A stretch of DNA of 64,000 nucleotides from NCBI GenBank assembly GCA_030649135.1, contig JAUSGI010000008.1, forward strand, positions 96,001 through 160,000, written 5' to 3'. Position numbers and translations under genes: made by a program. The stretch comes from a bacterium (GTDB lineage: Bacteria > Patescibacteriota > Minisyncoccia > Phycocordibacterales > Zambryskibacteraceae). Position 1 is the stretch's first letter. Every line of letters starts with the position of its first letter. Shown in pieces: positions 2,964 through 47,207 of the stretch. The notes beneath the pieces are model-generated. The model saw only the letters and a list, made by a program, of their open reading frames with translations, was not told where the DNA came from and did not search any database.

Positions 2964-4628
<1,665 letters not shown>

Positions 4629-7132: not shown

Positions 7133-8905
7133 ATGCTTAATACATTTACGAGTGGTCTGCGCCACAAAAATATTCATAGGAGATCTAACGCACCCATGGT
7201 GGCGAAAAAGCCTCATGACATCATTCCGACATTGGGAGAGAGCATTAGAATCATCCCGCTCGGCGGGGTGGAAGAAATCGGCAGAAACATGACCGTCATA
7301 GAATACGGCGAAGATATCATAGTCATTGATGCTGGCATTAAGTTTACCGACTATGAGACGCCAGGGGTCGACTATATCCTGCCTAATATTAAATATCTCG
7401 AGGAACGCAAGGACCACATCCGCGCCTTGGTGATTACTCACGGGCACCTCGACCACATCGGCTCCATCCCCTACGTCATTGACCGCCTTGGTAATCCGCC
7501 AATCTATACCCGTGAGTTTGGGGCCCTATTGATTCAGAAGAGGCAGGTGGAATTTCCCCACCTGGCGCCGCTTGATATCAGGATTGTCGAAGCCAACGAC
7601 ACTTCCATCCCGTTAACCGCCAATCTCAAGGTGCGCTTTTTCGGTGTTACCCACTCTATTCCGGATTCCACCGGTGTCATCATCGAGACCCCTTACGGCG
7701 ACATCGTCAATACCGGAGACGTGCGTATAGAGAACGAAAATGGCGTACCGGACCAGAGGGAAATAGAGCATTACAAAATGTTCAAGGACCGCAATATTCT
7801 GCTCTTTTGTATGGACTCGACAAACATCGAACAACCGGGCTTCTCGCTATCGGAAACTTTTATTTTGAAAAACATAGACGGGATTGTGGCCGCCGCGCCC
7901 GGCCGGATTATCTTAGCCACCTTTGCTACCCAAGTGGAGAGGGTGATTGAGTTTATCAAGATGGCCCAGCACTATTCGAGAAAAGTGATTATTGAAGGCC
8001 GCAGTATGAAAACAAATGTCGAGATTATCAAACATCTTAATCTCGTCGAAACCAGCCATATCATTCCGATTGAAGATACTACGAAGTATCCTCCCAACAA
8101 GATTATGATTATCACCACCGGCGCCCAAGGCGAAGAATTCTCCGCTCTGATGCGCATGTCCAACAAGACCCACAAATTTGTCCGTCTGGAACGTTCCGAC
8201 ACCATTGTGCTCTCTTCTTCCGCTATTCCCGGTAATGAACGCGCTATTTCCAAGCTGAAAGATAATCTCTATCGTCATGATTCAAAAATTATCACTTATC
8301 TTGATTCGGACGTGCACACCTCGGGCCACGGTAGGCGCGGTGAATTGGAGTGGTTACACAAGCAAATGCCGTACAAATATTTTATGCCGGTGCATGGCAA
8401 CCACTACAGACTAAAGATGCACGCCGAACTAGCCGCGAGACTCGGCTGTCCGCGCGAAAACATTATCGTGCCGGACAACGGCAGTATTCTCGAAATTCAA
8501 GACAAAGGCGCTAAGTTTGTTAAATTACGGGAGAAAGCGCCCTCGGAAGATATGGTGGTTGAGGGTCTTTCTATCGGAGATATTTCTGACGTAGTAATCC
8601 GAGACAGAAAAATGTTGGCGGAAGACGGTATTTTCGTAGTTATAGCCCTGGTGAACACGCGCACGGGCTATCTCAAAAAATCACCGGACATTATCGCCAG
8701 AGGTTTCGTCTACCTGCGGGAATCGCAGGAATTGCTTTCCGAAGCGCGGGGCATCATTAAGCGCTCCATCGAAGGCACCACCGTGGGTATGAATCCGATT
8801 AATTTTGATTACGCCAAGAACGCAGTCACCGAGGATGTCTCCCGGTTTCTCTTCCAACGCACAGCCAAAAAACCGATAGTTATTCCGGTCATCTTAGGAG
8901 TATGA
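7133..8905 (+). CDS. rnj: ribonuclease J (beta-CASP metallo-beta-lactamase RNase)
   Basis: IIPLGGVEEIGRNMTVIEYGEDIIVIDAG and HGHLDHIG motif. The true start may be the internal MVAKK (about 7196). Confidence 0.9.
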   Translation: MLNTFTSGLRHKNIHRRSNAPMVAKKPHDIIPTLGESIRIIPLGGVEEIGRNMTVIEYGEDIIVIDAGIKFTDYETPGVDYILPNIKYLEERKDHIRALVITHGHLDHIGSIPYVIDRLGNPPIYTREFGALLIQKRQVEFPHLAPLDIRIVEANDTSIPLTANLKVRFFGVTHSIPDSTGVIIETPYGDIVNTGDVRIENENGVPDQREIEHYKMFKDRNILLFCMDSTNIEQPGFSLSETFILKNIDGIVAAAPGRIILATFATQVERVIEFIKMAQHYSRKVIIEGRSMKTNVEIIKHLNLVETSHIIPIEDTTKYPPNKIMIITTGAQGEEFSALMRMSNKTHKFVRLERSDTIVLSSSAIPGNERAISKLKDNLYRHDSKIITYLDSDVHTSGHGRRGELEWLHKQMPYKYFMPVHGNHYRLKMHAELAARLGCPRENIIVPDNGSILEIQDKGAKFVKLREKAPSEDMVVEGLSIGDISDVVIRDRKMLAEDGIFVVIALVNTRTGYLKKSPDIIARGFVYLRESQELLSEARGIIKRSIEGTTVGMNPINFDYAKNAVTEDVSRFLFQRTAKKPIVIPVILGV

Positions 8906-23646: not shown

Positions 23647-24378
23647 CTAGAGATCTACTCGGTGTAATCCTTTTTTCTTTATTAGACTGCCTAGAAAGAT
23701 GCAATTGCGGCCATGCTTCCCGTTGACGAATATTTCATCGCACTCACATTCACCAAGAACACCTTTAAAGTACTCGTAGTCCATCTCTTTGGGCGCAAAG
23801 ATTACAATATCATTCGTTATAAACTCTTTGATATCAGAAATCAATTTAGCTAAGTCAGGATTTACTAGAGACCTTTTTTCTGCCGAATAGTTTGGATATT
23901 TCTCAGGGTACCAGTAAGGAATATCGTAAATAACAATATCCGCAGCAATACTTTTGAGTAAATCGGTATCAGTCACATCTCCCAAAACTAATTTAACTTT
24001 TTCAAGCAGACCTGCTTTTTCTAAATTTTCTCGACATGCTTCCAATACTTTTTTATCTATATCGACACCAATAGCTCCCTTGAACACTGGTGCTAAACGT
24101 TCAAGTGTAACACCAACCGCACAGCAGAGTTCGAGTAAAATCTTATTCGTATTGCCAATGCGTTCTCCAAGCCATTTTGCAGCCGTAGGATTGTTGGATA
24201 GGTAGAGAGATAATGCATCACCAGCGATATCTTCCCGGTATCCTCTTTTTTGTATGAGTAAACTACGAACGTTATCGTACATAATCTCTATTTTAACAGA
24301 TTTAGGCTTCAACAATAGACACCTGCGATTTTTGACAATTTCAAATTTTTTAAGAGATTTTCCCGAAGAAGTCCTCAA
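23647..24378 (-). CDS. SAM-dependent methyltransferase (RNA methylase-like)
   Basis: GVDIDKKVLEACRENLE..., VIYDIPYW; class I MTase fold. The start may be the internal MYDNV. Confidence 0.5.
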   Translation of the reverse strand: MRTSSGKSLKKFEIVKNRRCLLLKPKSVKIEIMYDNVRSLLIQKRGYREDIAGDALSLYLSNNPTAAKWLGERIGNTNKILLELCCAVGVTLERLAPVFKGAIGVDIDKKVLEACRENLEKAGLLEKVKLVLGDVTDTDLLKSIAADIVIYDIPYWYPEKYPNYSAEKRSLVNPDLAKLISDIKEFITNDIVIFAPKEMDYEYFKGVLGECECDEIFVNGKHGRNCIFLGSLIKKKGLHRVDL

Positions 24379-25210
24379 GTCCCTGATGATTCATTGTATC
24401 GTCATAACCCTGCTGGATCGTCTGAGACAAACAGTTAAACCTGGTGTCTATTCTGAAAATTGGTAAGTTCTTCTTTGGCTGAATTACAGCAATGTTTTTC
24501 TTCTGGCGTATTTTCTCAATAAGATTGGGTATTTGCTCGTAGTGAGCGGGCATGCTCCAAATCGCTTCCTGTAGTGCAGTTGTTTCATCGCGTATGAGAA
24601 GCCAGCGTAAAATTTTACGGAAGAAAAACATTTTAGGCAACGGCATAGGCGGTCTTGTAAGAACTATCAGGATATTATCTTCATCAAAAACTCTTTCTAG
24701 CCCAGAAACACTACCAATAGTGCCGTCATAGTAACACCGGCCCCCAAAACAAACCTTTCCTTCAGAAAAATAAGGAACGGCACAGCTTGATCTTAATAGT
24801 TCATAAAAATTTATTGGATCATCTTTCGAGAAAAAAACAGAAGTTCCAGTTTCAGCATCGGTAACGCCAATTTCTAATTTAGTTGGGTTACTCTTAAATG
24901 CGGGAAGATTTAATGGATATCGCTTTTGAAGCATTTCATCGATAAGAAAATTAATGTTCATGACACGTTTACCGATGGGGAATTTCCAGGGAGTAACAAA
25001 TTTACCAGATCTTACTAAGTCCTCCCAAATCGGTTGGATGAGATTCTCCTGGCCGCTGACAAGATACGAATATACTGCTGCTGCACCTGAGCTTGCTACA
25101 ATACGATGGAGTTTTTTAAAGCCGTATCTCTTCCCAAGTGCGGACACGACTCCAGCATGATAGGCAGTAATCATTCCGCCGCCCTGCCCAATGATACAAA
25201 ATTGATTCAT
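24350..25210 (-). CDS. patatin-like phospholipase
   Basis: GQGGGM oxyanion loop, ASSGAA (GxSxG) and the DG(T) catalytic dyad motif. Confidence 0.8.
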   Translation of the reverse strand: MNQFCIIGQGGGMITAYHAGVVSALGKRYGFKKLHRIVASSGAAAVYSYLVSGQENLIQPIWEDLVRSGKFVTPWKFPIGKRVMNINFLIDEMLQKRYPLNLPAFKSNPTKLEIGVTDAETGTSVFFSKDDPINFYELLRSSCAVPYFSEGKVCFGGRCYYDGTIGSVSGLERVFDEDNILIVLTRPPMPLPKMFFFRKILRWLLIRDETTALQEAIWSMPAHYEQIPNLIEKIRQKKNIAVIQPKKNLPIFRIDTRFNCLSQTIQQGYDDTMNHQGLEDFFGKIS

Positions 25211-25212
25211 TT

Positions 25213-25286
25213 TGGCTGCGGGACTTGGATTCGAACCAAGATACTCGCCTTCAAAGGGCGATGTCCTACCATTAGACGATCCCGCA
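25213..25286 (-). tRNA. tRNA-Gln(TTG), CCA encoded
   Basis: TGCGGGA.../...TCCCGCAGCCA, anticodon stem TCGCC/GGCGA, loop CTTTGAA. Confidence 0.88.
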
Positions 25287-37396: not shown

Positions 37397-38901
37397 ACCC
37401 ACTCGCCAACATTATAAGGAGCATGGTCAACCCTTTGCCGGAAGACGTTGTCACCGTCAAGAAGGCCTTTACCTTCGCTCTCCGCGCTCACCAAGGGCAC
37501 GAGAGACTATCCGGGGAACCTTATTTAAAACATCTGTCCGAAACGGCACTGATACTGGCAGAGCTGGGCGCGGGAGGGCCAACGATTGCAGCTGGATTAC
37601 TTCACGATACGATAGAAGATGTTGGGGTTAAAAGAGAGGAAATTGTATCTGAATTTGGAGAAGAAGTCGCTTTCTTGGTTGACGGTGTTACCAAGCTCGG
37701 ACATCTTAAATATAAAGGTGTTAACCGACACAACGAGAGCTTGCGTAAATTATTCGTAGCCATGTCGGAAGATATCAGAGTGCTTCTCATCAAGCTCGCG
37801 GACCGCCTACATAATATGAGAACGCTCTCTCATGTGCCGAAAGAAAAACAAAAAAGGATAGCGGCGGAGACACTCGAAATCTACGCCCCCATCGCCTACC
37901 GACTGGGTATCAGAAAGATTAATCGCGAGCTTGAAGACTTATCCTTCCCTTACGTATATCCCAAGGAATACGAAGAGATGCGAAAAATGCTCAAAGAACG
38001 ACACTCGGATAGAGTAGAGAGTTTAGAAAAATTTTCACACTCTGTTCAGAAGGCGCTGGCCAAAGAAGGTTTAACCAAAGCCAAGACAGAGTATCGGGTA
38101 AAGGGACTCTATAGTCTATACAAAAAATATCTTAGATATGATAAAGACCTGGAAAAGATCTATGACGTGAGCGCCATGCGTATCCTAGTGGACTCTATAG
38201 CAGATTGTTATCGAGTGCTGGGAGTGATACATGGACGCTGGAGACCTTTACCGCGTCGTATCAAAGATTACATCGCTTTCCCCAAACCGAATGGCTATCA
38301 GGCCCTACATACAACTATCTTCATTGGAGACGGCAATATTGTGGAAGTCCAGATTAAAACTCACGAGATGTATCGGTATTCCGAATACGGTATCGCTTCC
38401 CACCTTTACTATAAAGAAAACGGTCGCAATAAAAATGTCTTGGCCTGGGTCTATGCCCTTTTGCCAAAATCTAAAAAAGCAAACGGCACAGGTACTGTTA
38501 AAAGTAAGGATGTGCCCAAATGGATATCGGAGTTGGCCACATATGAAGAGCCCTCCCAAAATCAACGGCTCTTCCGAGAAAGGCTCACAAGCGACTTTTT
38601 CAGCCAAAGAATATTTGTTTTCTCCCCGAAGGGCGACGTGGTGGACTTGCCTATTGACTCAACCCCCATCGACTTTGCCTATTCGATACATTCCGACATC
38701 GGAGACCGCATGACGGGCAGCAAAGTGAATGGCAAGTTGGTCTCACTTGACACCAAGCTTCACAATGGAGATATAGTTTTCATCATGACTAGCGAATCGG
38801 CTAAACCTAATCGCAAATGGCTTGAGATGACCAAAACCTCAATGGCTCGCCGCCATATCCGACATCAACTTGGGAAACTTAGGAAACCTGACCGCGCTTA
38901 G
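37357..38901 (+). CDS. rel: bifunctional (p)ppGpp synthetase/hydrolase, Rel/SpoT family, short form (HD + synthetase + TGS, no ACT)
   Basis: HD motif LLHDTIED, synthetase YQALHTTI..., TGS. The start may be the internal MVNPLPED (37423). Confidence 0.9.
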   Translation: MSQSQPTQNQSDLDPLANIIRSMVNPLPEDVVTVKKAFTFALRAHQGHERLSGEPYLKHLSETALILAELGAGGPTIAAGLLHDTIEDVGVKREEIVSEFGEEVAFLVDGVTKLGHLKYKGVNRHNESLRKLFVAMSEDIRVLLIKLADRLHNMRTLSHVPKEKQKRIAAETLEIYAPIAYRLGIRKINRELEDLSFPYVYPKEYEEMRKMLKERHSDRVESLEKFSHSVQKALAKEGLTKAKTEYRVKGLYSLYKKYLRYDKDLEKIYDVSAMRILVDSIADCYRVLGVIHGRWRPLPRRIKDYIAFPKPNGYQALHTTIFIGDGNIVEVQIKTHEMYRYSEYGIASHLYYKENGRNKNVLAWVYALLPKSKKANGTGTVKSKDVPKWISELATYEEPSQNQRLFRERLTSDFFSQRIFVFSPKGDVVDLPIDSTPIDFAYSIHSDIGDRMTGSKVNGKLVSLDTKLHNGDIVFIMTSESAKPNRKWLEMTKTSMARRHIRHQLGKLRKPDRA

Positions 38902-39860
38902 ATACTGAAATTGGCGACAGAATAGAGAGACTCGTCGTCTTCGGATTTTACTGGCTCGTCCTCTGCGAGAATTTTGTCCTCCTCTGTCAGAGCTGGAACG
39001 TCTGCTATAGACATGTTTACTTCATGTGAGTTTTTAAATTCTTTATCCACAATAATTCTTTCAAGTAGAGCTCGTAGGTCATCTTTATTGAAAAAGTCTA
39101 TCGTCACTCGCCCGCCTTCTTCCTTCTTTTCTATTCTCACTCGAGTACCCAATTTCTCTTTAAACAAGCCCTCGATATCTATAAGTTCTTGGTCGATCAA
39201 CTTGCGGGCACGCTCGACCGCAATGTGACGTGCGATACCTTCCGCCTCCCTGACGTTGAGTTTTTTGAAAATAATTTCTTTGAAAAGCGTTTCTTGCTCC
39301 TGTGGCCTGTCGGTAAGCATCATGAGTGGCCGGGTATGGCCCTCGCTAATCTTATTTTCCGATAGAGCGTTAATAATATATTCCGGCAAAGAAAGAATGC
39401 GCAGAGAGTTTGAGACAAACTCACGACTCTTCCCTACTTTCTTGCCGATCTCGTGATGCTTGAACTTAAATTCTTTCGACAGGCGGTCGAAAGCGCGGGC
39501 ACGGTCAACGGGACTAAGGTCCTCGCGCTGAATGTTTTCGATGATAGCGAGCTCAAGTTTCATTAGGTCAGTTTCCTCACCATCGCGAATGAGTACTGGT
39601 ACTTGCGCGAGGCCAGCTAGGCGAGCGGCGCGGAGGCGCCGCTCGCCGGCCACCAATTCATATTCCACACCAATCCCCCCCTCCTCCTTTTCCACTTCTT
39701 TACGCGTCACCACAAGAGCCTGAAGCACGCCATATTGGCGGATGGAATCCGCCAAACTCTTGAGCTGAACTTCATCGAAGTCACGGCGGGGCTGGTATGG
39801 GTTCGGCTTAATTTTATCCACCTCTATCCAGAAAATAGAGTCGTTATAGAATCGGGACAT
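38898..39860 (-). CDS. parB: ParB/Spo0J-like partition protein with C-terminal extension
   Basis: LVAGERRLRAARLAGL, LIENIQRE motifs. Confidence 0.85.
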   Translation of the reverse strand: MSRFYNDSIFWIEVDKIKPNPYQPRRDFDEVQLKSLADSIRQYGVLQALVVTRKEVEKEEGGIGVEYELVAGERRLRAARLAGLAQVPVLIRDGEETDLMKLELAIIENIQREDLSPVDRARAFDRLSKEFKFKHHEIGKKVGKSREFVSNSLRILSLPEYIINALSENKISEGHTRPLMMLTDRPQEQETLFKEIIFKKLNVREAEGIARHIAVERARKLIDQELIDIEGLFKEKLGTRVRIEKKEEGGRVTIDFFNKDDLRALLERIIVDKEFKNSHEVNMSIADVPALTEEDKILAEDEPVKSEDDESLYSVANFSI

Positions 39861-39903
39861 GCAAATATTATATCAAATGTTTTTATGCTATTCTATGGTA
39901 GAC

Positions 39904-39986
39904 GCTGGAGTGATGGAATGGCAGACATGCAGCACTCAAAATGCTGTGGGCGCAAGCCCGTGTGGGTTCAAGTCCCACCTCCAGCA
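39904..39986 (+). tRNA. tRNA-Leu(CAA), type II, no encoded CCA
   Basis: Acceptor GCTGGAG/CTCCAGC, anticodon stem CAGCA/TGCTG, loop CTCAAAA, variable arm TGGGCGCAAGCCCGTG, T-loop TTCAAGT, discriminator A. Confidence 0.85.
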
Positions 39987-39987
39987 C

Positions 39988-40566
39988 ATGCTAAATCTTA
40001 CCGATAAAACTTTGGTGGCATATGTTATTGGTATCGCTCTTGGCGATGGAAATCTTTCTAATCCGAATGGACGTGCAGTTAGATTAAGAATAACCTGTGA
40101 CTCTAAATATCCCTTTTTGATTTCTAAGATTGAACAGTCATTAAAGAAATTGGCCCCTAAAAATAAAGTCTCTCGAATCAATAGAGGAGATAATGCCATA
40201 GATGTCAGCTGCTATTCAAATCAATGGGAGCAATTACTCGGTTGGAAGGCCTACGGTGGCTCAAAAATAAGACAATCGGTTCGCATACCTAGTTGGATAT
40301 TTAGAAATAAAAAACTTTGTCAGGCTTGTTTGTGCGGACTATGGGAGACCGATGGTTCGGTTTACAAAGACAGAAAATATATAACAGCAAATTTTGTGAC
40401 TCAGATTCCAAGCCTCGCACAAGGTGTGGCGAAGATGATTCTTAAAACCCGCTACAAGGCTTCTATACAAAAATTGGTCTTATCTGATAACAGAGAAAAA
40501 TTTACTTTCAGAATTCATAGAAATGCTTCTCAGTTTATTAAAGAAATGTCTATAGAGAAAAGGTGA
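39988..40566 (+). CDS. LAGLIDADG-family homing endonuclease (double-motif)
   Basis: Two LAGLIDADG motifs: LVAYVIGIALGDGNL and LCGLWETDGSV. The ATG begins 1 nt after the tRNA-Leu discriminator. The upstream in-frame extension reads through the tRNA and is rejected. Confidence 0.85.
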   Translation: MLNLTDKTLVAYVIGIALGDGNLSNPNGRAVRLRITCDSKYPFLISKIEQSLKKLAPKNKVSRINRGDNAIDVSCYSNQWEQLLGWKAYGGSKIRQSVRIPSWIFRNKKLCQACLCGLWETDGSVYKDRKYITANFVTQIPSLAQGVAKMILKTRYKASIQKLVLSDNREKFTFRIHRNASQFIKEMSIEKR

Positions 40567-40704
40567 TACAGCAAGCGTCCATCATAGAATGTGGATTCTC
40601 TCTCCCGGCACCCATAATTGACTTCCTATCAGTGTGATATAAAATTCGTGTTAAACAGTACAAACGCGACTTATCAGATAGAACCAAGGGAGGAGGTGAA
40701 GGAC

Positions 40705-41094
40705 ATGACACCAGGCGATAAACTGCAGTTATGCCAGCAGGTTGGGGAGTGCCTCCGAAACTCTCCGGTAAAAGATTCTCTCACGAAGCGCTGGGAGAAT
40801 CAGCTCTTCGCGAGGCATCTAGAGTATCCGGAGCGAAGTCCCCAAATCTGCACGACGGTGCAGTTGGAAATCGGACCTACAACCGGCTGGTTTACACTTG
40901 AGCAGACGGGTGGTGGTTTCTTGGCGCACATCTGGGCGCCAGGCGCCCGAGAGTCCAAGGAGGTCGAGAAGGAGGCACGCGATCTCGGTGACCATCTGTT
41001 GTCGGTCCTTCCTGCCTCATGCGTTCGAGTCCGTTTTGCCAAACCGCACGAGTTCCTCTCTCGTAAAGGGTGGTCAATCCACAACGGCAACTAG
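40705..41094 (+). CDS. hypothetical protein (129 aa), GC-richer orphan
   Basis: Strong SD GGGAGGAGGTGaaggacATG, upstream TTGACT-N16-TAAAAT, strong terminator; no recognisable domain. Confidence 0.6.
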   Translation: MTPGDKLQLCQQVGECLRNSPVKDSLTKRWENQLFARHLEYPERSPQICTTVQLEIGPTTGWFTLEQTGGGFLAHIWAPGARESKEVEKEARDLGDHLLSVLPASCVRVRFAKPHEFLSRKGWSIHNGN

Positions 41095-41115
41095 GTATAG
41101 ACGGGCAATCATCCC

Positions 41116-41157
41116 GGGCCTCTCCGACACCGCTGTCGGAGAGGCCCTCTTCTTTTT
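41116..41157 (+). terminator. strong rho-independent terminator (14-bp stem + T-run)
   Basis: GGGCCTCTCCGACA-ccgc-TGTCGGAGAGGCCC followed by TCTTCTTTTTT. Confidence 0.85.
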
Positions 41158-41198
41158 TAAATTTATTTTCATAAATGGTTAGTTTTTACTGCATGTGC

Positions 41199-41228
41199 TT
41201 GACTTTTAGCATATATCTATTGTATAAT
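41199..41228 (+). promoter_or_regulatory. sigma70-like promoter TTGACT-N18-(TG)TATAAT
   Basis: Sequence match; 45 nt upstream of the SD AAGGAGGG. Confidence 0.45.
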
Positions 41229-41273
41229 CTAAGCAGAAAATAAAACGATCTTAGCCCAGGGCCCAAGGAGGGC

Positions 41274-41729
41274 ATGATGCACAAGTCACTAGTTTTCGCA
41301 TGGATATGTGTGATCTGTTGGTCATTCCTTCCGAATATTTTGGAACGGAAGCTGGATGGTTTCCACCCTGCGTCGATCCTCGTCCTCGTCTACTCCGTGA
41401 TGCTCTCGCTCGCCTTTGTACGACTGGGACACGTAAAGTACATGGGAGAGCCGGTGCACTTCCCGACGGGCATCTTCCTTACCATCGCTGTCGGTACTGC
41501 CTTCCTCTGGTTTGTGGGTGACTACTCGTATACCAGCGCATTCTTGAGCCAGGGTAGCCTGGTCGCGATCATGACTATTTTGGCTTTATCACCCATCGGT
41601 GCAACCCTCGTGAAGATGGTTTGGGCAGGGGAGCTCCCGAACCGTTATCACATCGTGGCGTATGTGGCAGTCCTCATAGCAATCTACTTCACGGCGAAAG
41701 GTAATACCATCGCCAACTCAGTCCCCTGA
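41274..41729 (+). CDS. hypothetical 4-TM membrane protein
   Basis: SD AAGGAGGGcATG; hydrophobic 151 aa. Confidence 0.55.
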   Translation: MMHKSLVFAWICVICWSFLPNILERKLDGFHPASILVLVYSVMLSLAFVRLGHVKYMGEPVHFPTGIFLTIAVGTAFLWFVGDYSYTSAFLSQGSLVAIMTILALSPIGATLVKMVWAGELPNRYHIVAYVAVLIAIYFTAKGNTIANSVP

Positions 41730-41841
41730 AATAGACATTGCGAGTTCAAGCCTCGCATGGGAAAGCTCAACACAGCTTACCGTGCGGGGCTTTCTTATTT
41801 TCATAACATACTCTGTATATTTGCAATGTATAATAAGATGA

Positions 41842-44553
41842 ATGGAAACCAAGTGGCATACACTAGAGCTTTCGGAAATATTTGAGATATTGAAGTCTAG
41901 TGAGCACGGACTCTCAAGCGTAGAGGCGGATCGGCGGCTTGACGAGAACGGACCGAATAAATTACCGGATTCGAAAGCAGATAGCATCGCGTTTATTTTC
42001 CTGCGCCAATTTCGAAGTCCCTTGATTTATATCCTCCTCGCGGCCGCCCTGACGGTTTTTGTCATGGGGGAAACAGTCAACAGTATCGTTATTATGGCGG
42101 TGCTTATTGTTAATGCAGTTATCGGCTCCATCCAGGAGGGACGGGCCCGCAGTACCATACTTGCCCTGAAGCAATTCGTGGAGACAAAAGCGGTTATTCT
42201 GCGAGACGGCAAAGAAGTGATTGCCCCCGATACGCAAGTAGTAGTCGGGGATATCATCTTACTCCAAGAGGGCGACAGAATAGCCGCCGATGCAAGGTTG
42301 ATAGTCGCCCGGAATCTAAAAATCGACGAATCCTCTTTGACCGGAGAGTCCGAGGCGGTGCACAAGACAAGTGACACTCTGGTCAAGCCAGACTTGGCGA
42401 TGATAGGGGAAAGCAATATGGTCTTCAAAGGCACCCACATTGTCCTGGGCAATGGCAAAGCAGTTGTGGTAAAAACCGGAGTGGAAACAGTCATCGGTAA
42501 AATTGCCAAAGAGGTTCTAACTATCGAGACAGAAATTCCACTTCAGACCAATATCCGTTATCTCTCCAGAATAATTATCGCAATTGCTATTGGCGTCAGC
42601 ACCGCCATCTTTATCCTTGGCAGCTTTTCCGGTCAATCTACACGAGAAATGTTTTCTCTTGTCGTTTCCATGCTCGTCTCCGTCATACCGGAAGACTTGC
42701 CTATTGCCATCACTATAATTTTAGCCGCCGGCGTCTGGAGAATGAGTAAGAGAAATGCTCTGGTCAAGCGCCTGCAGGCGGTCGAGGCGCTTGGAGAAGC
42801 CCGAGTCATCGCGGTAGATAAGACCGGCACTATTACCAAAAACGAGATGATGGTCCAGACTATCTATGTGGATGGTAAAACTTTCGAGGTCGGAGGCATC
42901 GGGTATGAACCTAAGGGAGATATCAAACTGGAAAATCGGATTATAGACCCGCCCAATCATCCGGAACTTTTGCTAGTCGGCAAAATGGCCGCTTTTTGCG
43001 CCAATGCTCGGGTCATGTTTCTGGAAAAGACCAAGGAGTGGAAAATCTCCGGCGATCCGACGGAAGCGGCCATGTTGGTAGTGGCAGAAAAACTTGGATT
43101 TAATAAAGATGATTTGGAACGTGAGTCCCCGCTCATATCGGAAATTCCTTTCGACTATAAATTGAAATATCACGTGACCGTTCACAAAGACAATAACCAA
43201 AACTTTACAACAATCGTGGGGGCGCCGGAAACTATCTTGGGAATCTCGAGCAAAGTCTGGCGTAACGGGCAGGCAGAGCAACTCTTACCGGAGGAGAAAG
43301 ATGAATTGGTATCCATTTTTTCCGGTATTTCGAAGAGGGGGCTTAGAGTTATCGCGCTTGCCTTAAGCCCACAGGTGTCAGAAAATGTTAATCAAACAGA
43401 TATTAAACATCTCACTTTTGTCGGGTTCTTGGGCCTAAAGGATGCCTTACGTCTGGAAGTTAAGGAAGCCACCAAACGCGCGATCTCGGCCGGCATCAGG
43501 GTGGTGATGATTACCGGTGACCACCAAAATACTGCGGAAACCATAGCGAAAGAAGCCGGTATCTACAGGACCGGTGATATCAGTTTGACGGGCGCAGAAA
43601 TTGATAATCTGTCGGATACCATGCTTAAAGAGCGCCTGACCAAAACTTCTGTCTTTGCCAGAGTAACGCCGGAGCACAAGCTCCGCATTATCAATGCCTA
43701 CAAATCGAGAGGAGAGATTGTCGCGATGACGGGTGACGGAGTAAACGACGCGCCGTCTCTAGTGGCGGCAGACCTCGGAGTGGCGATGGGCAGAGTCGGC
43801 ACCGAGGTGGCCAAAGAAGCTTCCGATATCATACTCTTGGACGATAACTTCGGCAGTATCATTTCCGCCATTGAGGAGGGCAGGAGTATTTATAAAACTA
43901 TTAAAAAAGTTGTTCTATATCTATTATCCACCAGTCTCGGAGAGATTTTTGTTATTGCCGGAGCCATCATCGTTGGGCTCCCCCTACCGCTTTTGCCAAC
44001 ACAAATTATCTGGCTGAACTTCGTCACTGACGGATTTTTCACCTTGGCGCTCGCCATGGAACCGAGGGAGGAGGGACTATTGCGCGGCAATTTTGAGAAG
44101 CCGAAAAAATATTTGGTTGATGCCCTCATGGGACGGCGGATGATTGTCATGGCGCTCCCGATGACGATAGCGACGCTCGTGCTGTTTCAAAATTACTTCA
44201 ATACTGACTTGGCAAAAGCCTGGACAATTTCCCTCACCCTCCTGGCAGTATTCCAATGGTTCAATGCTTGGAATTGCCGCTCCGAGAGCGAGTCTATCTT
44301 CCAGACTAACCCCTTTGAAAATAAGTTCATGGTATTTGCCACCTTGGCGGCCTTTTCCTTCCAGTTGCTGGCTGTTTATAATCCCCTGTTCCAAAAATTC
44401 TTACATACTGCGCCGCTTGCGCTTTCCGACTGGTTGGTTATCATTGCCCTTGCTACTTCTATTGTCTTGGTGGAAGAAGTTAGAAAATTTTTATGGCGCA
44501 ACAAAAAGTCCTCGTTATCCTTGGCCCTACCGCTTCAGGCAAGTCAGATTTAG
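41842..44553 (+). CDS. P-type cation-transporting ATPase (Ca2+/Mg2+ type IIA/IIIB-like)
   Basis: DKTGTITKN phosphorylation motif, TGDGVNDAP, TGES; 10 TM; 903 aa. Confidence 0.95.
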   Translation: METKWHTLELSEIFEILKSSEHGLSSVEADRRLDENGPNKLPDSKADSIAFIFLRQFRSPLIYILLAAALTVFVMGETVNSIVIMAVLIVNAVIGSIQEGRARSTILALKQFVETKAVILRDGKEVIAPDTQVVVGDIILLQEGDRIAADARLIVARNLKIDESSLTGESEAVHKTSDTLVKPDLAMIGESNMVFKGTHIVLGNGKAVVVKTGVETVIGKIAKEVLTIETEIPLQTNIRYLSRIIIAIAIGVSTAIFILGSFSGQSTREMFSLVVSMLVSVIPEDLPIAITIILAAGVWRMSKRNALVKRLQAVEALGEARVIAVDKTGTITKNEMMVQTIYVDGKTFEVGGIGYEPKGDIKLENRIIDPPNHPELLLVGKMAAFCANARVMFLEKTKEWKISGDPTEAAMLVVAEKLGFNKDDLERESPLISEIPFDYKLKYHVTVHKDNNQNFTTIVGAPETILGISSKVWRNGQAEQLLPEEKDELVSIFSGISKRGLRVIALALSPQVSENVNQTDIKHLTFVGFLGLKDALRLEVKEATKRAISAGIRVVMITGDHQNTAETIAKEAGIYRTGDISLTGAEIDNLSDTMLKERLTKTSVFARVTPEHKLRIINAYKSRGEIVAMTGDGVNDAPSLVAADLGVAMGRVGTEVAKEASDIILLDDNFGSIISAIEEGRSIYKTIKKVVLYLLSTSLGEIFVIAGAIIVGLPLPLLPTQIIWLNFVTDGFFTLALAMEPREEGLLRGNFEKPKKYLVDALMGRRMIVMALPMTIATLVLFQNYFNTDLAKAWTISLTLLAVFQWFNAWNCRSESESIFQTNPFENKFMVFATLAAFSFQLLAVYNPLFQKFLHTAPLALSDWLVIIALATSIVLVEEVRKFLWRNKKSSLSLALPLQASQI

Positions 44554-45383
44554 CCGTTCGATTAGCCAAGAGATTCGGGGGAGAAATAATCTCTGCCGAT
44601 TCGCGACAAGTATATAAGGGTCTTGATATCGGCACCGGCAAGATTACCAAGCAGGAAATGCGGGGAGTCCCCCATCATCTGCTGGATGTGGTAAATCCTC
44701 GAAAACAATTCTCGGCATCGAAATACAAAAAACTAGCTGATGAAAAAGTACGATATATCGCACAAAAGCATAAGTTACCCATTGTGGTAGGAGGGACGGG
44801 GTTTTATATTGATGCCTTGACAGGCAGAGCTAATTTTCCGGAGGTGGGACCCAATCTTCTATTACGCAAGAAGCTGGAGAAAAAAACTGCGTCTGAACTT
44901 TTCCGAATGTTAAATAAAAAGGACCCCCGGAGAGCTGGAGCAATTGATTTGAGAAATAAAGTACGTGTGATACGGGCATTGGAAATTGTCGAGGCTCTGG
45001 GCAAGGTGCCCCAAGCTAGCCCCAAGCCCCTAGAACCTAGCCCCTTTATCTACATCGGCCTCAAACCGGATAATCTTGACGGGAGAATTCATAAGAGACT
45101 AATAGAGAGGCTTGATGGGATGATTCGCGAGGGCAAAAAACTCCACACTCAAGGACTCACCTACAAGCGCATGCACCAGCTCGGGCTGGAATATAGATAT
45201 GTTGGTATGTACCTACAAGGCAAGCTCTCACGGGAAGAAATGGTTGATAAGTTATATATTGAAATAAAACGTTACGCCAAGCGCCAAATGACTTGGTTCA
45301 AACGCAATAAAAAGATTAGGTGGTTTAAACCGGAGGAATACAAAAAGATAGAAAGATTAGTAAATGTTCAGCTAAACACCTAA
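44493..45383 (+). CDS. miaA: tRNA dimethylallyltransferase
   Basis: VLVILGPTASGKSDLAVRLA..., ISADSRQVYKGLDIGT. Confidence 0.9.
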   Translation: MAQQKVLVILGPTASGKSDLAVRLAKRFGGEIISADSRQVYKGLDIGTGKITKQEMRGVPHHLLDVVNPRKQFSASKYKKLADEKVRYIAQKHKLPIVVGGTGFYIDALTGRANFPEVGPNLLLRKKLEKKTASELFRMLNKKDPRRAGAIDLRNKVRVIRALEIVEALGKVPQASPKPLEPSPFIYIGLKPDNLDGRIHKRLIERLDGMIREGKKLHTQGLTYKRMHQLGLEYRYVGMYLQGKLSREEMVDKLYIEIKRYAKRQMTWFKRNKKIRWFKPEEYKKIERLVNVQLNT

Positions 45384-45776
45384 AAACTTTCGAATTTCAG
45401 CTATGGCTAGCATGTCATGGTCAATCATCTGGAGATTTCCTAAATCATCAAACTTCCGCCAACTCTTGCCTTGACCCTCATGCTGTATAAGCGGCTGTGA
45501 AGAATCGTATTCCTCAACAAAAACGTACTTGATATTTTCATCTTCCTTCCAATTAAATTTCTGAACTAACACCCGAACTGGCTTAGATACTTTATATTCT
45601 AGTTCTTCAAAAATTTCTCGCTCTAAAGCCGCCTCTGGAGTTTCCCCTTTCTCTATCCCTCCCCCAAAGAAACCCCAGTAGTTAGGAAGTCTTTTCGCAT
45701 CCTCGTCTCTATGTTGAAGAAGGATTTCCTTATCCTTATTGTATAAGGCCAATACTGAAATATTTCTTACTGCCAT
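45372..45776 (-). CDS. NUDIX hydrolase
   Basis: Nudix box GGGIEKGETPEAALEREIFEELE. Confidence 0.8.
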   Translation of the reverse strand: MAVRNISVLALYNKDKEILLQHRDEDAKRLPNYWGFFGGGIEKGETPEAALEREIFEELEYKVSKPVRVLVQKFNWKEDENIKYVFVEEYDSSQPLIQHEGQGKSWRKFDDLGNLQMIDHDMLAIAEIRKFLGV

Positions 45777-45779
45777 ATG

Positions 45780-45850
45780 CGGGCGATCGAGGAATCGAAC
45801 CTCGGATAGCAGATTTGGAGGCCGCAGTTATACCACTTAACTAATCGCCC
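45780..45850 (-). tRNA. tRNA-Trp(CCA), no encoded CCA
   Basis: Acceptor GGGCGAT/ATCGCCC, D-stem GTTA/TAAC, loop CTCCAAA, T-loop TTCGATT, discriminator G. One mismatch at the base of the anticodon stem. Confidence 0.75.
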
Positions 45851-46684: not shown

Positions 46685-47104
46685 CTATGCCTCCGGAGTC
46701 TTGATTGGTACTGGTAAGCCAAACTTTCTGTGATAGTCGAGGTCTTCAGCTTCGTAATCGAAAGTTAACTCTTCTCCTTCCGGAATATCATGGGCGGCAA
46801 TATCAGAATAAATTCCATTTTCTAGAGAACCATTTGTAATGTTTGGTTCTTTCGAGTGATTGACAAATCGAGCATCATCAAAACATAGAATGTAAATGTC
46901 TGGCTTTTCTTTATCAATATAAGAATAGTTTAGAATTTGCTCGCGACTATATTCAGAGAGGGCAACTAGATCTTCTTTCTTCAACTCTAAATCAAGGCCT
47001 GGAGTAAACTTCCAAGTAGGCGTGCCCTTTTTGACGAACTCCGCAGCAAATAATCCAATACCGTTAATTTTACTTGGACCAATTCTTGTTTTAACGAGTA
47101 GCAT
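46685..47104 (-). CDS. SET-domain protein (putative lysine methyltransferase)
   Basis: GIGLFAAEFVKKG, ARFVNHSKEPN (the NHSC-type motif) and C-terminal Y. Start at MLLVK, because the upstream in-frame extension reads through tRNA-Tyr. Confidence 0.72.
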   Translation of the reverse strand: MLLVKTRIGPSKINGIGLFAAEFVKKGTPTWKFTPGLDLELKKEDLVALSEYSREQILNYSYIDKEKPDIYILCFDDARFVNHSKEPNITNGSLENGIYSDIAAHDIPEGEELTFDYEAEDLDYHRKFGLPVPIKTPEA

Positions 47105-47120
47105 ATAACATATTTTATAC

Positions 47121-47207
47121 TGGTGCGCCGGGCAGGATTCGAACCTGCGTAGACCAAAGGTCGAGGGATTTACAGTCCCTTGCGATTGACCGCTCCGCCA
47201 CCGACGC
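47121..47207 (-). tRNA. tRNA-Tyr(GTA), type II, CCA encoded
   Basis: Acceptor GCGTCGG/CCGGCGC, anticodon stem AGGGA/TCCCT, loop CTGTAAA, long variable arm, T-loop TTCGAAT, A + CCA. Confidence 0.85.

What the first reader, a model, noticed from the sequence alone, without database searches (positions are those of the whole stretch)
39904..40566. LAGLIDADG homing endonuclease ORF starts 1 nt after tRNA-Leu(CAA)
The HEG has both LAGLIDADG motifs intact, so it is probably active. Its ATG begins at 39988. The tRNA-Leu discriminator is at 39986 and the tRNA has no encoded CCA. There is no room for an SD or a promoter, so the HEG must be co-transcribed with the tRNA. 3' processing of the tRNA, RNase Z-like cleavage after the discriminator, would leave an essentially leaderless HEG mRNA (5'-C-AUG...). 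That couples a selfish endonuclease's expression to tRNA maturation. Freestanding HEGs beside tRNA genes are known in phage; here the arrangement sits between parB and a pair of GC-rich orphan genes, so the whole 39.9-41.8 kb stretch looks like an insertion hot spot.
Basis: partly seen in the sequence, partly recalled or inferred. Interest (0 to 1): 0.6.

Follow-up and report, generated by a model that had tools for sequence, protein, structure and literature searches.

The report
Homing endonuclease gene flush against tRNA-Leu
A small, intact LAGLIDADG endonuclease gene starts one base after a leucine tRNA gene; it belongs to a large, apparently undescribed family in ultrasmall (Patescibacteria) bacteria that sits at this same tRNA in about a third of related genomes, and it probably depends on tRNA processing to be expressed.

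Summary
tRNA-Leu(CAA) lies at 39904-39986, C39987 follows, and a 192-aa double-motif LAGLIDADG ORF runs 39988-40566 with both catalytic Asp intact.

This arrangement is not peculiar to the window.
- About 90 Patescibacteria loci carry a homologue directly after tRNA-Leu(CAA). Leaders are mostly 1-12 nt and none has a Shine-Dalgarno motif.
- Among metagenome loci sharing one 40-nt tRNA core, 23 de-replicated clusters are occupied, 47 are empty and 1 holds only a remnant.
- A few copies are pseudogenes.

In the window's clade the ancestral order is parB<-|tRNA-Leu(CAA)->miaA. The endonuclease ORF lies exactly between tRNA and miaA, and its stop overlaps the miaA start. The window and its nearest relatives also carry a variable block plus a P-type ATPase (40.6-44.5 kb) before miaA.

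At empty sites, miaA and other genes also start 0-3 nt after the tRNA. Two other tRNAs in this window do the same. The flush start is therefore a habit of the lineage that the endonuclease gene shares.

Expression as a near-leaderless mRNA released by tRNA 3' processing is the best reading, but it is inferred and not shown. The gene is under strong purifying selection (dN/dS 0.07) and is mostly inherited vertically, so whether it is selfish or domesticated stays open. I rate it a new variant of a known kind.

The parts
38898..39860 (-). parB, divergent upstream neighbour. It is a conserved synteny partner of the tRNA-HEG pair.
   Evidence: Pfam ParB_N, HTH_ParB and ParB_C. A ParB homologue lies upstream in 60 of 80 homologous loci.
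39861..39903 (+). 43-nt parB/tRNA intergenic spacer. It, or the sequence just upstream, must hold the promoter that drives the tRNA and therefore the HEG.
   Evidence: The stretch CAAATGTTTTTATGCTATTCTATGGTAGAC is identical in the relative L186, where the surrounding DNA is 77% identical. The consensus scan found no sigma-70 match here. The promoter is therefore inferred, not located.
39904..39986 (+). tRNA-Leu(CAA). CCA is not encoded and the discriminator is A39986.
   Evidence: ARAGORN; Rfam RF00005 at 55.5 bits; sequence read.
39987..39987 (+). Single spacer base C between the discriminator and the ATG. It would be the whole leader after cleavage at the discriminator.
   Evidence: A 1-nt leader is the commonest class among homologous loci, 21 of 85.
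39988..40566 (+). Free-standing LAGLIDADG endonuclease gene. It is 192 aa, monomeric, double-motif and I-DmoI-like.
   Evidence: Pfam PF14528; 718 homologues; AlphaFold2 pLDDT 95.1; Foldseek hits to I-Tsp061I, PI-SceI and I-DmoI at E about 1e-9 to 1e-8; dN/dS 0.07 against L186.
40021..40056 (+). LAGLIDADG motif 1 (Y12-L23, YVIGIALGDGNL). The catalytic D20 is at 40045-40047.
   Evidence: G19, D20 and G21 are invariant in alignment A1. D20 ends helix 7-20 in the model.
40324..40359 (+). LAGLIDADG motif 2 (A113-S124, ACLCGLWETDGS). The catalytic D122 is at 40351-40353.
   Evidence: T121, D122 and G123 are invariant in alignment A1. D122 ends helix 108-122 in the model.
40579..40612 (+). Decayed 3' part (variable arm to 3' end) of a second, different tRNA-Leu(CAA) allele, 13 nt after the HEG stop. 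It marks the boundary of the variable region.
   Evidence: 16 of 16 bases match the tRNA 3' end in L043, and 33 nt align to the L051 tRNA; 1 of 200 shuffles reaches this score. It is conserved in L186, and window/L186 homology ends at 40611. A better-preserved copy opens L189.
39890..39906 (.). Left arm of a 17-nt inverted repeat (15 of 17 complementary) that brackets tRNA+HEG. The right arm is 40574-40590.
   Evidence: RNAduplex z=-4.2 in the window against a mean z of -0.14 over 62 homologous loci. It is window-specific and its meaning is unknown.
40574..40590 (.). Right arm of the bracketing inverted repeat. It overlaps the tRNA fragment.
40613..41841 (+). Lineage-variable segment. It holds a promoter-like site (40618-40645), a 129-aa narrow-family gene (40705-41094, strong GGAGG SD) and an EamA-like 151-aa gene (41274-41729).
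   Evidence: No homology to L186 over this stretch. L186 carries different small genes here. Promoter-like site; five homologues; Pfam.
41842..44553 (+). P-type cation ATPase. It is part of a block that separates the HEG from miaA in the window and in L186-L189, but not in L001, L002, L003, L055 or L122.
   Evidence: Pfam; synteny.
44493..45383 (+). miaA. It is the ancestral immediate downstream partner of tRNA-Leu(CAA).
   Evidence: TIGR00174 at 231.8 bits. miaA abuts the tRNA at empty sites and overlaps the HEG stop at occupied sites in the clade.

Best explanation
This is a free-standing, ORF-only LAGLIDADG homing-endonuclease gene of the compact monomeric I-DmoI type. It belongs to a large Patescibacteria family whose fixed genomic address is the 3' end of the tRNA-Leu(CAA) gene.

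The ancestral unit in this clade is promoter - tRNA-Leu(CAA) - miaA, and tRNA-Leu(CAA) is itself a MiaA substrate class. The endonuclease ORF was inserted exactly between the two. Its start lies flush with the tRNA and its stop overlaps the miaA start. In the window's sub-lineage, further DNA later accumulated between it and miaA.

The gene has no promoter or Shine-Dalgarno motif of its own. It is transcribed from the tRNA promoter. Endonucleolytic 3' maturation of the CCA-less tRNA, by RNase Z-type cleavage after A39986, releases an mRNA that begins C-AUG and is translated as a near-leaderless message. This resembles the mitochondrial tRNA punctuation scheme. The same scheme serves miaA and other genes at empty sites, and other tRNA-adjacent genes in this genome.

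The protein is most likely an active site-specific DNA endonuclease. Its target lies at or in the tRNA-Leu(CAA) locus, and its action explains the one-site distribution and the patchy occupancy.

Shown here: the anatomy, the family-wide site specificity, the presence/absence pattern, the exact insertion boundaries, purifying selection, and the lack of SD motifs.
Inferred: co-transcription, the cleavage position, leaderless translation, nuclease activity and the target.
For: Anatomy.

Family-wide linkage: tRNA-Leu(CAA) lies directly upstream on the same strand in about 67 of 80 species-representative loci. Most exceptions are contigs cut at the end.

Leaders in 90 loci:
- 1 nt in 21 loci, 2-5 nt in 24, 6-12 nt in 17.
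- 0 of 31 leaders of 8 nt or more contain an SD-like motif.
- By contrast, the next gene in the window has a GGAGG SD.

85% of the linked tRNAs lack an encoded CCA. Leaders are shorter in those (median 3 nt against 7 nt, p=0.015).

Presence/absence: 23 occupied, 47 empty and 1 remnant cluster.

Exact junctions: the empty allele in L185 reads GGCAC-CAA-ATGAAAAAG (miaA). Occupied alleles read GGCAC-ATG...(HEG)...A-TGA, overlapping the miaA ATG in L001, L002 and L122.

Decay products of the kind expected from a homing cycle:
- L055 has a frameshift, L028 and L070 have stops, and L113 is a 32-aa remnant.
- About 8 copies lack a start codon.

Activity and function:
- Catalytic Asp are invariant.
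- The fold is I-DmoI/I-Tsp061I-like.
- dN/dS is 0.07.

Generality of flush starts:
- miaA and other genes at empty sites.
- 8 of 92 other tRNAs against 2 of 211 controls, p=0.0015.
- A patatin gene and a NUDIX gene in the window.

No intron or other RNA family is detected at the locus.

Precedent: phage T4 SegB is a free-standing HEG in a tRNA cluster whose recognition site includes tRNA T-arm DNA (PMC2330249).
Against: There are no transcript or protein data. RNase Z was not seen in the 64 kb, only RNase J, which would attack a 5'-monophosphate message.

20 of 85 homologues start with TTG and 2 with GTG. Some leaders are 13-25 nt. Neither fits strict leaderless initiation as known from E. coli (own knowledge).

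Evidence for mobility is indirect:
- No occupied/empty pair is closer than about 75% flank identity, and no cluster at 95% identity or above is mixed.
- Where the HEG tree carries signal, it agrees with ParB in 93% of triplets.
- HEG G+C tracks host G+C (r=0.77).
- No relatives occur in viral contigs.
Together these fit long residence better than frequent transfer.

Identical tRNA sequences occur with and without the HEG. A target lying wholly inside the tRNA would therefore leave carriers unprotected. The target remains unknown.
Confidence: 0.62

Rival explanations
1. Domesticated LAGLIDADG protein. The family is no longer, or not mainly, a selfish homing element. It is kept in the tRNA-Leu(CAA)/miaA operon because it does something for the cell, such as DNA binding or cleavage linked to the nearby parAB/origin region, or a role tied to tRNA-Leu or MiaA.
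For: - dN/dS is 0.07, like the housekeeping neighbours.
- About 90% of copies are intact with invariant catalytic residues.
- Inheritance is mostly vertical where resolvable, 93% triplet agreement with ParB.
- G+C is ameliorated.
- The parB-tRNA-HEG-miaA synteny is conserved across many orders.
- The family is absent from viral contigs.
Against: - Only about a third of loci with the same tRNA carry it, and occupancy is nearly random on the ParB tree (36 of 58 nearest neighbours share state).
- Pseudogenes, a remnant and start-less copies exist, including the window's close relative L055.
- Catalytic Asp are retained, unlike the known domesticated relative WhiA (own knowledge).
- The HEG is systematically AT-richer than its host in 73 of 75 loci.
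- It lies next to tRNA-Leu(CAA) in four different orientations or orders (L014, L047/L052, L048). That fits a DNA address better than an operon role.
Confidence: 0.2
2. Same gene, different expression route. The HEG is translated from the unprocessed tRNA-mRNA precursor, or from a message cut elsewhere, by SD-independent initiation. Alternatively it is barely translated at all, which keeps a toxic nuclease low. tRNA 3' processing is then not what creates the translated mRNA.
For: - TTG and GTG starts occur in 22 of 85 copies, and leaders of 13-25 nt in 16 loci.
- Some tRNAs encode CCA, and in L186 the CCA overlaps the ATG (GCA-CC-ATG). Cutting after CCA there would destroy the start.
- In L047 the HEG lies between a TATAAT-like box and the tRNA. 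That means a primary leaderless or short-leader transcript, not a processed one.
Against: - In the precursor, the AUG sits 1 nt from a 7-bp acceptor helix, where a 30S subunit could not load without melting the tRNA (inference).
- The commonest leader is exactly 1 nt, and 85% of linked tRNAs lack CCA. That is the substrate class cut right after the discriminator by RNase Z in Bacillus (own knowledge).
- dN/dS of 0.07 shows the protein is made and matters.
Confidence: 0.15
3. The real protein is the 235-aa ORF from ATG 39859, or starts at GTG/ATG inside the tRNA D-arm. It would be translated through the tRNA sequence, so the flush ATG is only an internal Met.
For: The frame is open from 39859 through the tRNA. 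Several database gene calls carry such N-terminal extensions (P0003, P0004, P0006 and others).
Against: - The extensions are plain translations of tRNA-Leu(CAA) in different frames in different homologues.
- Stop codons lie between tRNA and start in L011, L018, L025 and L069.
- The Met column aligns across the family.
- ATG 39859 overlaps the parB start on the other strand.
Confidence: 0.02
4. The endonuclease is encoded in an intron or intein, or it is cargo of an integrase-type island.
For: - Patescibacteria carry many group I introns in tRNA and rRNA genes (PMC13011429, PMC11270868).
- Partial tRNA-Leu(CAA) copies flank some loci in the way att sites would.
Against: - The tRNA upstream is complete and uninterrupted.
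- No group I or II intron model matches, even at E up to 1.
- Only 13 nt of non-coding DNA follow the ORF before the tRNA fragment.
- No integrase lies in the locus.
- The protein has no intein or extein context.
Confidence: 0.01

Closest known systems
I-DmoI / I-Tsp061I (archaeal rRNA-intron LAGLIDADG endonucleases, monomeric, about 190-200 aa)
   Same: Same size, two LAGLIDADG motifs in one chain, same predicted fold (Foldseek E about 1e-9 to 1e-8, TM 0.6-0.7). The acidic residues sit at the ends of both motif helices.
   Different: Only 16-18% identity. The gene here is free-standing, not intron-encoded. It is bacterial (Patescibacteria). Its address is a tRNA gene end rather than an rRNA gene.
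Phage T4 SegB (free-standing homing endonuclease in the T4 tRNA gene cluster; PMC2330249)
   Same: A free-standing endonuclease gene set among tRNA genes. SegB's recognition site includes conserved tRNA T-arm DNA, and homing carries the flanking tRNA markers along. It is the closest functional analogue for a tRNA-locus-targeted HEG.
   Different: SegB is GIY-YIG, phage-borne, and has its own expression signals. The family here is LAGLIDADG, chromosomal, absent from viral contigs, tied to one specific tRNA, and flush with its 3' end.
LAGLIDADG genes in rRNA insertions of CPR/Patescibacteria (PMC11270868)
   Same: Same phylum, same enzyme superfamily, and conserved RNA genes used as the address. 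Long-term retention with patchy loss is also described there.
   Different: Those genes lie inside 16S/23S insertions, often group I introns, and are mostly single-domain LAGLIDADG_1 or _2. That paper does not mention tRNA-adjacent copies.
Mitochondrial tRNA punctuation with leaderless mRNAs (Ojala, Montoya & Attardi 1981; own knowledge, cited within PMC4633059)
   Same: The start codon lies at or within a few nt of the 3' end of an upstream tRNA, with no leader or SD. The mRNA 5' end is presumed to be made by tRNA excision.
   Different: Here it occurs in a free-living-type bacterial chromosome and only at some tRNAs. It is untested experimentally. SD-led genes coexist in the same genome.
WhiA (domesticated LAGLIDADG-derived transcription factor). 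JGI names several family members 'WhiA'.
   Same: Weak Pfam similarity to the WhiA LAGLIDADG-like domain (E=0.006, below threshold).
   Different: No WhiA N-terminal domain and no C-terminal HTH. The protein is 192 aa rather than about 310 aa, and the catalytic Asp are retained. It is not WhiA.

Membership tests
LAGLIDADG homing endonucleases (double-motif monomer) | Two LAGLIDADG motifs, each ending in a conserved acidic residue | tested here: met
   GDG (D20) and TDG (D122) are invariant in 30 homologues. Pfam PF14528 scores above its cut-off.
LAGLIDADG homing endonucleases (double-motif monomer) | Pseudo-dimeric alpha-beta-beta-alpha-beta-beta-alpha fold | tested here: met
   AlphaFold2 pLDDT 95.1 with the expected order of elements. 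Top PDB matches are all LAGLIDADG enzymes.
LAGLIDADG homing endonucleases (double-motif monomer) | Site-specific cleavage of a long DNA target | not testable with these tools
   Needs purified protein and empty-site DNA.
Homing (selfish) genetic element | One fixed genomic address, with occupied and empty alleles among relatives | tested here: met
   About 90 loci sit at tRNA-Leu(CAA). There are 23 occupied, 47 empty and 1 remnant cluster. Junctions are clean.
Homing (selfish) genetic element | Horizontal spread: gene tree in conflict with host tree, or polymorphism within a population | tested here: inconclusive
   Occupancy is patchy on the ParB tree (36 of 58). However, triplet agreement with ParB is 93% where the HEG is resolved, and no cluster at 95% identity or above is mixed.
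Homing (selfish) genetic element | Degenerate copies, as expected from an invasion-decay-loss cycle | tested here: met
   L055, L028, L070 and the L113 remnant; start-less copies.
Intron- or intein-encoded endonuclease | ORF embedded in a group I/II intron or an intein | tested here: not met
   No intron model matches at E up to 1. The tRNA is uninterrupted. There are no extein flanks.
SegB-type free-standing HEG in tRNA clusters | GIY-YIG catalytic domain, phage genome | tested here: not met
   The domain is LAGLIDADG. The context is chromosomal, and no relatives occur in viral contigs. The relationship is functional analogy only.
WhiA | WhiA N-terminal domain, degenerate LAGLIDADG core and C-terminal HTH | tested here: not met
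   Only a sub-threshold hit to the WhiA LAGLIDADG-like domain (17.1 bits against 23.2). No N-terminal domain or HTH, and the catalytic Asp are present.
tRNA-punctuated leaderless mRNA | Start codon within a few nt of the upstream tRNA 3' end, with no SD | tested here: met
   1-nt spacer in the window. 45 of 85 homologues have leaders of 5 nt or less, and 0 of 31 longer leaders carry an SD.
tRNA-punctuated leaderless mRNA | mRNA 5' end generated by tRNA 3' processing and translated as such | not testable with these tools
   Needs 5'-end mapping and ribosome profiling. RNase Z was not found in the 64-kb window.

The most novel reading that the evidence does not exclude
Two linked claims.

(1) Patescibacteria use tRNA 3' processing as a regular way to make leaderless mRNAs, a bacterial version of mitochondrial tRNA punctuation. 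A phylum-wide LAGLIDADG family has specialised on this by occupying the first position after tRNA-Leu(CAA), ahead of miaA.

(2) The endonuclease breaks the tRNA-Leu(CAA) gene itself. Repair then copies a replacement tRNA part together with the ORF. This would leave the displaced tRNA 3' pieces seen after the ORF, as in the window at 40579-40612. The element would thus restore the gene it cuts.
Probability: 0.3. Interest if true: 0.75.

Novelty: new variant of a known kind. Interest (0 to 1): 0.58.

Why it matters
Free-standing homing endonucleases are well known in phages and organelles. A chromosomal bacterial family with one tRNA gene end as its address, present in hundreds of Patescibacteria, was not found in the literature searched here.

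It offers three things:
- A natural set of compact (about 190 aa) monomeric LAGLIDADG enzymes. They have diverged to about 50% identity while staying at one highly conserved locus. That is useful for studying how specificity co-evolves with a target, and as engineering scaffolds.
- A concrete, testable case that bacteria with tiny genomes express genes by tRNA punctuation with leaderless translation. The case extends beyond the endonuclease to miaA, methyltransferase-like, patatin and NUDIX genes.
- A practical annotation point. Gene callers often extend these ORFs through the tRNA (222-235 aa calls) or name them 'WhiA'. Both are wrong.

Tried and rejected
- **Downstream RNA gene or intron.** I asked whether the G+C-rich stretch after the HEG hid an RNA gene or intron. 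Rfam found only tRNAs at gathering score. At E up to 1 it added only sub-threshold ctRNA-like and SmY hits.
- **Bracketing inverted repeat.** I tested the repeat at 39890-39906/40574-40590 as a family feature, either a processing stem or terminal inverted repeats. It is significant in the window only (z=-4.2) and absent across 62 loci (mean z=-0.14). Rejected as part of the mechanism.
- **Immunising tRNA allele.** No position separates HEG-linked from HEG-less tRNAs, and identical tRNAs occur in both states. Rejected.
- **Rampant horizontal transfer.** Raw triplet agreement with ParB is only 48%, but this comes from lack of signal in a short, saturated protein. Where the HEG is resolved, agreement is 93%. 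Not supported.
- **Within-species occupied/empty pairs.** None found. The best flank identity is 70-76%, and no cluster at 95% or above is mixed.
- **Phage origin.** No relative in IMG/VR.
- **Named families.** PDB sequence search and NCBIfam gave nothing for the HEG.
- **tRNA remnant against the window's own tRNA.** My first alignment of the downstream DNA to the window's own tRNA was not significant. The remnant appeared only when all tRNA-Leu(CAA) alleles were used.
- **Cleavage site from fragment end points.** The fragments start at tRNA positions 32, 37, 54, 58 and 65 onward. This is too few cases, and decay explains them equally well. Partial copies also occur at 5 of 63 HEG-less loci, so they are not specific to the HEG.
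Full report
**1. The observation**

ARAGORN and Rfam both find tRNA-Leu(CAA) on the + strand at 39904-39986. The sequence shows:
- acceptor GCTGGAG/CTCCAGC;
- discriminator A39986;
- one further base, C39987;
- then ATG at 39988.
No CCA is encoded.

The ORF 39988-40566 encodes 192 aa and matches Pfam LAGLIDADG_3 above its cut-off. It has two motifs, YVIGIALGDGNL (D20) and CLCGLWETDGS (D122). Both Asp are invariant in a 30-member alignment.

An AlphaFold2 model built on that alignment is very confident (pLDDT 95.1). It puts each Asp at the C-terminal end of a long helix. Its best PDB matches are I-Tsp061I, PI-SceI and I-DmoI. The protein is therefore a compact monomeric LAGLIDADG enzyme of the archaeal-intron/intein type.

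The reading frame is open upstream through the tRNA to ATG 39859. That extension is not real. In homologues the extra residues are simply the tRNA translated in different frames, and several loci have stop codons between tRNA and start.

**2. The arrangement is a family trait**

A protein search found 718 homologues, nearly all about 190 aa and labelled Patescibacteria/Parcubacteria. I fetched 80 loci from species-representative genomes.
- About 67 have tRNA-Leu(CAA) directly upstream on the same strand.
- Six are cut by the contig end.
- L047 and L052 have the gene directly upstream of the tRNA.
- L014 is convergent and L048 divergent with it.
- Four G+C-rich loci, probably not Patescibacteria, have no tRNA and ordinary leaders.

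Across 90 tRNA-linked loci, including metagenome loci, the distance from discriminator to start codon is:

| Leader length | Loci |
|---|---|
| 1 nt | 21 |
| 2-5 nt | 24 |
| 6-12 nt | 17 |
| 13-25 nt | 16 |

None of the 31 leaders of 8 nt or more holds a Shine-Dalgarno-like motif. The genome does use SD sites: the next gene in the window has GGGAGGAGG before its ATG.

Of 81 linked tRNAs, 69 lack an encoded CCA. Their leaders are shorter than those of the 12 that encode it (median 3 nt against 7 nt, p=0.015).

**3. Empty sites and exact boundaries**

I scanned metagenome contigs with a 40-nt core of this tRNA and obtained 105 loci. Among those with enough downstream sequence, 24 carry a full homologue flush with the tRNA, 58 carry none, and one (L113) keeps only a 32-residue remnant. 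After de-replication at 95% identity this becomes 23 occupied, 47 empty and 1 remnant cluster. No cluster is mixed.

In the window's own clade the gene order is topA - relA - parB(-) - tRNA-Leu(CAA) - HEG - miaA (L001, L002, L003, L055, L122). L185 is an HEG-less relative, with ParB 77% identical to the window's, and has tRNA - miaA.

The junctions are clean.
- The empty allele reads ...GGCAC CAA ATGAAAAAG... (miaA).
- Occupied alleles read ...GGCAC ATG...(HEG)...AAAA-TGA-A..., in which the HEG stop overlaps the miaA ATG.

The inserted unit is therefore essentially the ORF alone. miaA in the window is at 44493-45383 (TIGR00174).

**4. The flush start belongs to the locus and the lineage**

At empty sites several genes start close after the same tRNA:
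- miaA, 1-3 nt after it (L124, L129, L150, L174, L185);
- a DNA-methyltransferase-like gene, 3 nt (L127, L140, L151);
- a 75-aa gene, 0 nt (L125);
- a phosphoribosyltransferase-like gene, 1 nt (L178).

Over all other tRNAs in the fetched loci, 8 of 92 are followed by an ORF start within 6 nt. The control, the equivalent position on the divergent side, gives 2 of 211 (p=0.0015).

In this window:
- a patatin-like gene (24350-25210, -) starts 2 nt after tRNA-Gln(TTG);
- a NUDIX gene (45372-45776, -) starts 2 nt after tRNA-Trp;
- a SET-domain gene starts 16 nt after tRNA-Tyr.

**5. Resident or mobile?**

Evidence for long residence:
- The HEG is AT-richer than its flanks in 73 of 75 loci (mean -8.6 points), yet its G+C tracks the host's (r=0.77).
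- HEG identity plateaus near 53% once ParB identity falls below 70%, and rises to 65-72% for close hosts.
- For ParB-resolved triplets the HEG agrees in only 48%, against 82-99% for RelA, ParA, MiaA and TopA. When the HEG itself is resolved, agreement is 93%. The low raw figure reflects saturation, not clear transfer.
- Against the 85%-identical relative L186, dN/dS is 0.07. The neighbours give 0.04-0.05.
- No relatives were found in viral contigs.

Evidence for turnover:
- Occupancy is patchy on the ParB tree; 36 of 58 nearest neighbours share state.
- Decay products exist: L055 has a frameshift, L028 and L070 have stops, L113 is a remnant, and about eight copies have no start codon.

Taken together, this is an old, mostly vertically inherited gene under selection that has been repeatedly lost. 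Both a slow homing cycle and a dispensable domesticated gene fit that picture. I favour the homing element. The catalytic residues are invariant. The address is kept even when orientation changes. The insertion is ORF-only at one nucleotide-precise site.

**6. The region after the HEG**

The window and L186-L188 (Zambryskibacteria GCA_002772475.1) share a P-type ATPase between the HEG and miaA. They differ completely between the HEG and the ATPase.

Window/L186 homology stops at 40611. That is the 3' end of a decayed partial copy of a different tRNA-Leu(CAA) allele at 40579-40612. It matches another locus's tRNA end at 16 of 16 bases, and 1 of 200 shuffles reaches the score.

L189 carries an 88%-identical copy of the 129-aa gene. 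It opens with a better-preserved copy of this tRNA end, followed by the same promoter-like TTGACT-16-TAAAAT and the gene.

Same-strand partial tRNA-Leu(CAA) copies lie within 150 nt after the HEG stop in 10 of 92 loci. Controls give 1 of 92 on the reverse strand and 0 of 89 at 300-450 nt. Such copies also follow the tRNA in 5 of 63 HEG-less loci. 5' pieces occur upstream in L049 and L121.

These are footprints of repeated recombination into or at this tRNA gene. They do not identify the endonuclease's cut site, because identical tRNAs occur with and without the HEG.

**7. Mechanism**

Shown:
- no space for a promoter or an SD;
- a conserved upstream block shared with L186;
- flush starts across the family;
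- CCA-less tRNAs predominate.

Inferred:
- transcription from the tRNA promoter;
- endonucleolytic cleavage after the discriminator, which is RNase Z-type behaviour on CCA-less precursors as known from Bacillus (own knowledge);
- translation of a C-AUG message by the leaderless route.

Caveats:
- TTG and GTG starts in 22 of 85 copies;
- some leaders of 13-25 nt;
- CCA overlapping the ATG in L186;
- RNase J in the window (7133-8905), which would shorten the life of a 5'-monophosphate message;
- no RNase Z within the 64 kb.

**8. Comparison with what is known**

- The enzyme is a member of the LAGLIDADG family (motifs and fold tested and met).
- It is not intron- or intein-borne (tested, not met).
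- It is not WhiA, despite database names.
- The nearest functional analogue is phage T4 SegB, a GIY-YIG free-standing endonuclease in a tRNA cluster that recognises tRNA T-arm DNA (PMC2330249).
- The nearest expression analogue is mitochondrial tRNA punctuation.
- Papers on Patescibacteria tRNA introns (PMC13011429) and rRNA insertions (PMC11270868) do not describe this family.
- Searches for leaderless or tRNA-punctuated expression in this phylum found nothing.

**9. Verdict**

The arrangement is a new variant of known kinds: a free-standing HEG with tRNA-punctuated expression, rather than a new category.

Noticed in passing
window 40579-40612 (also L186 6597-6624; L189 1-30): A decayed 3' part of a second tRNA-Leu(CAA) allele lies 13 nt after the HEG stop. 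Homology between the window and its nearest relative ends exactly at the fragment's 3' end, and variable genes follow it.
   Followed up: partly
L114, L133, L069, L010 and others (after the HEG stop); L144/L176, L098/L163, L169 (HEG-less); L049, L121 (upstream 5' pieces): Same-strand partial copies of tRNA-Leu(CAA) recur next to the intact gene. They occur in 10 of 92 HEG+ and 5 of 63 HEG- loci, against 0-1 in controls. 3' pieces start at tRNA positions 32, 37, 54, 58 and 65 onward. 5' pieces end at positions 35 and 19. The cause is unresolved: recombination footprints, old att-like scars or break repair.
   Followed up: partly
window 39890-39906 and 40574-40590: A 17-nt inverted repeat (15 of 17 complementary) brackets tRNA+HEG. 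It is significant in the window (z=-4.2) but absent from 62 homologous loci. Its function is unknown.
   Followed up: yes
window 24350-25210 (-) after tRNA-Gln(TTG) 25213-25286; 45372-45776 (-) after tRNA-Trp 45779-45850; 46685-47104 (-) after tRNA-Tyr 47121-47207: A patatin-like gene and a NUDIX gene start 2 nt after a tRNA, and a SET-domain gene starts 16 nt after one. This suggests tRNA-punctuated expression is general in this genome.
   Followed up: partly
window 40705-41094; L189 119-508; L190 1526-1921: The 129-aa 'orphan' is a real, narrow family with 5 homologues at 62-100% identity. It has its own promoter-like site and a strong SD. In L190 it lies about 90 nt after tRNA-Pro(GGG), so it too tends to sit just after tRNA genes.
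   Followed up: partly
L189 4122-5771 (-): A large serine recombinase (Resolvase/Recombinase/Zn_ribbon_recom, 549 aa) abuts a shortened miaA. ARAGORN places tRNA-Trp at 4138-4211 in this relative, overlapping the recombinase call. This may be another mobile element at the neighbouring tRNA.
   Followed up: no
L186 5916-6003: In the 85%-identical relative the tRNA reads ...GCA-CC-ATG. An encoded CCA therefore shares its A with the HEG start codon. A cut after CCA would destroy the start, while a cut after the discriminator leaves a 2-nt leader.
   Followed up: no
L036, L062, L073, L075: Four G+C-rich loci, labelled proteobacterium, Terriglobales or 'bacterium', carry a family member with no tRNA nearby and an ordinary leader (AAGGAG in L062). 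The family therefore occasionally lives outside the tRNA address and perhaps outside Patescibacteria.
   Followed up: partly
window 44493-44553: The longest miaA ORF overlaps the end of the P-type ATPase ORF by 61 nt. The true miaA start was not examined.
   Followed up: no
window 7133-8905 (+): RNase J (beta-CASP and C-terminal domains). It is the only metallo-beta-lactamase-type RNase seen in the 64 kb, and no RNase Z was found there.
   Followed up: partly
database entries P0003, P0004, P0006, P0009, P0010, P0051, P0113: Public gene calls of 214-235 aa extend the HEG through the tRNA, and JGI names many members 'DNA-binding transcriptional regulator WhiA'. Both look like annotation errors.
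   Followed up: yes
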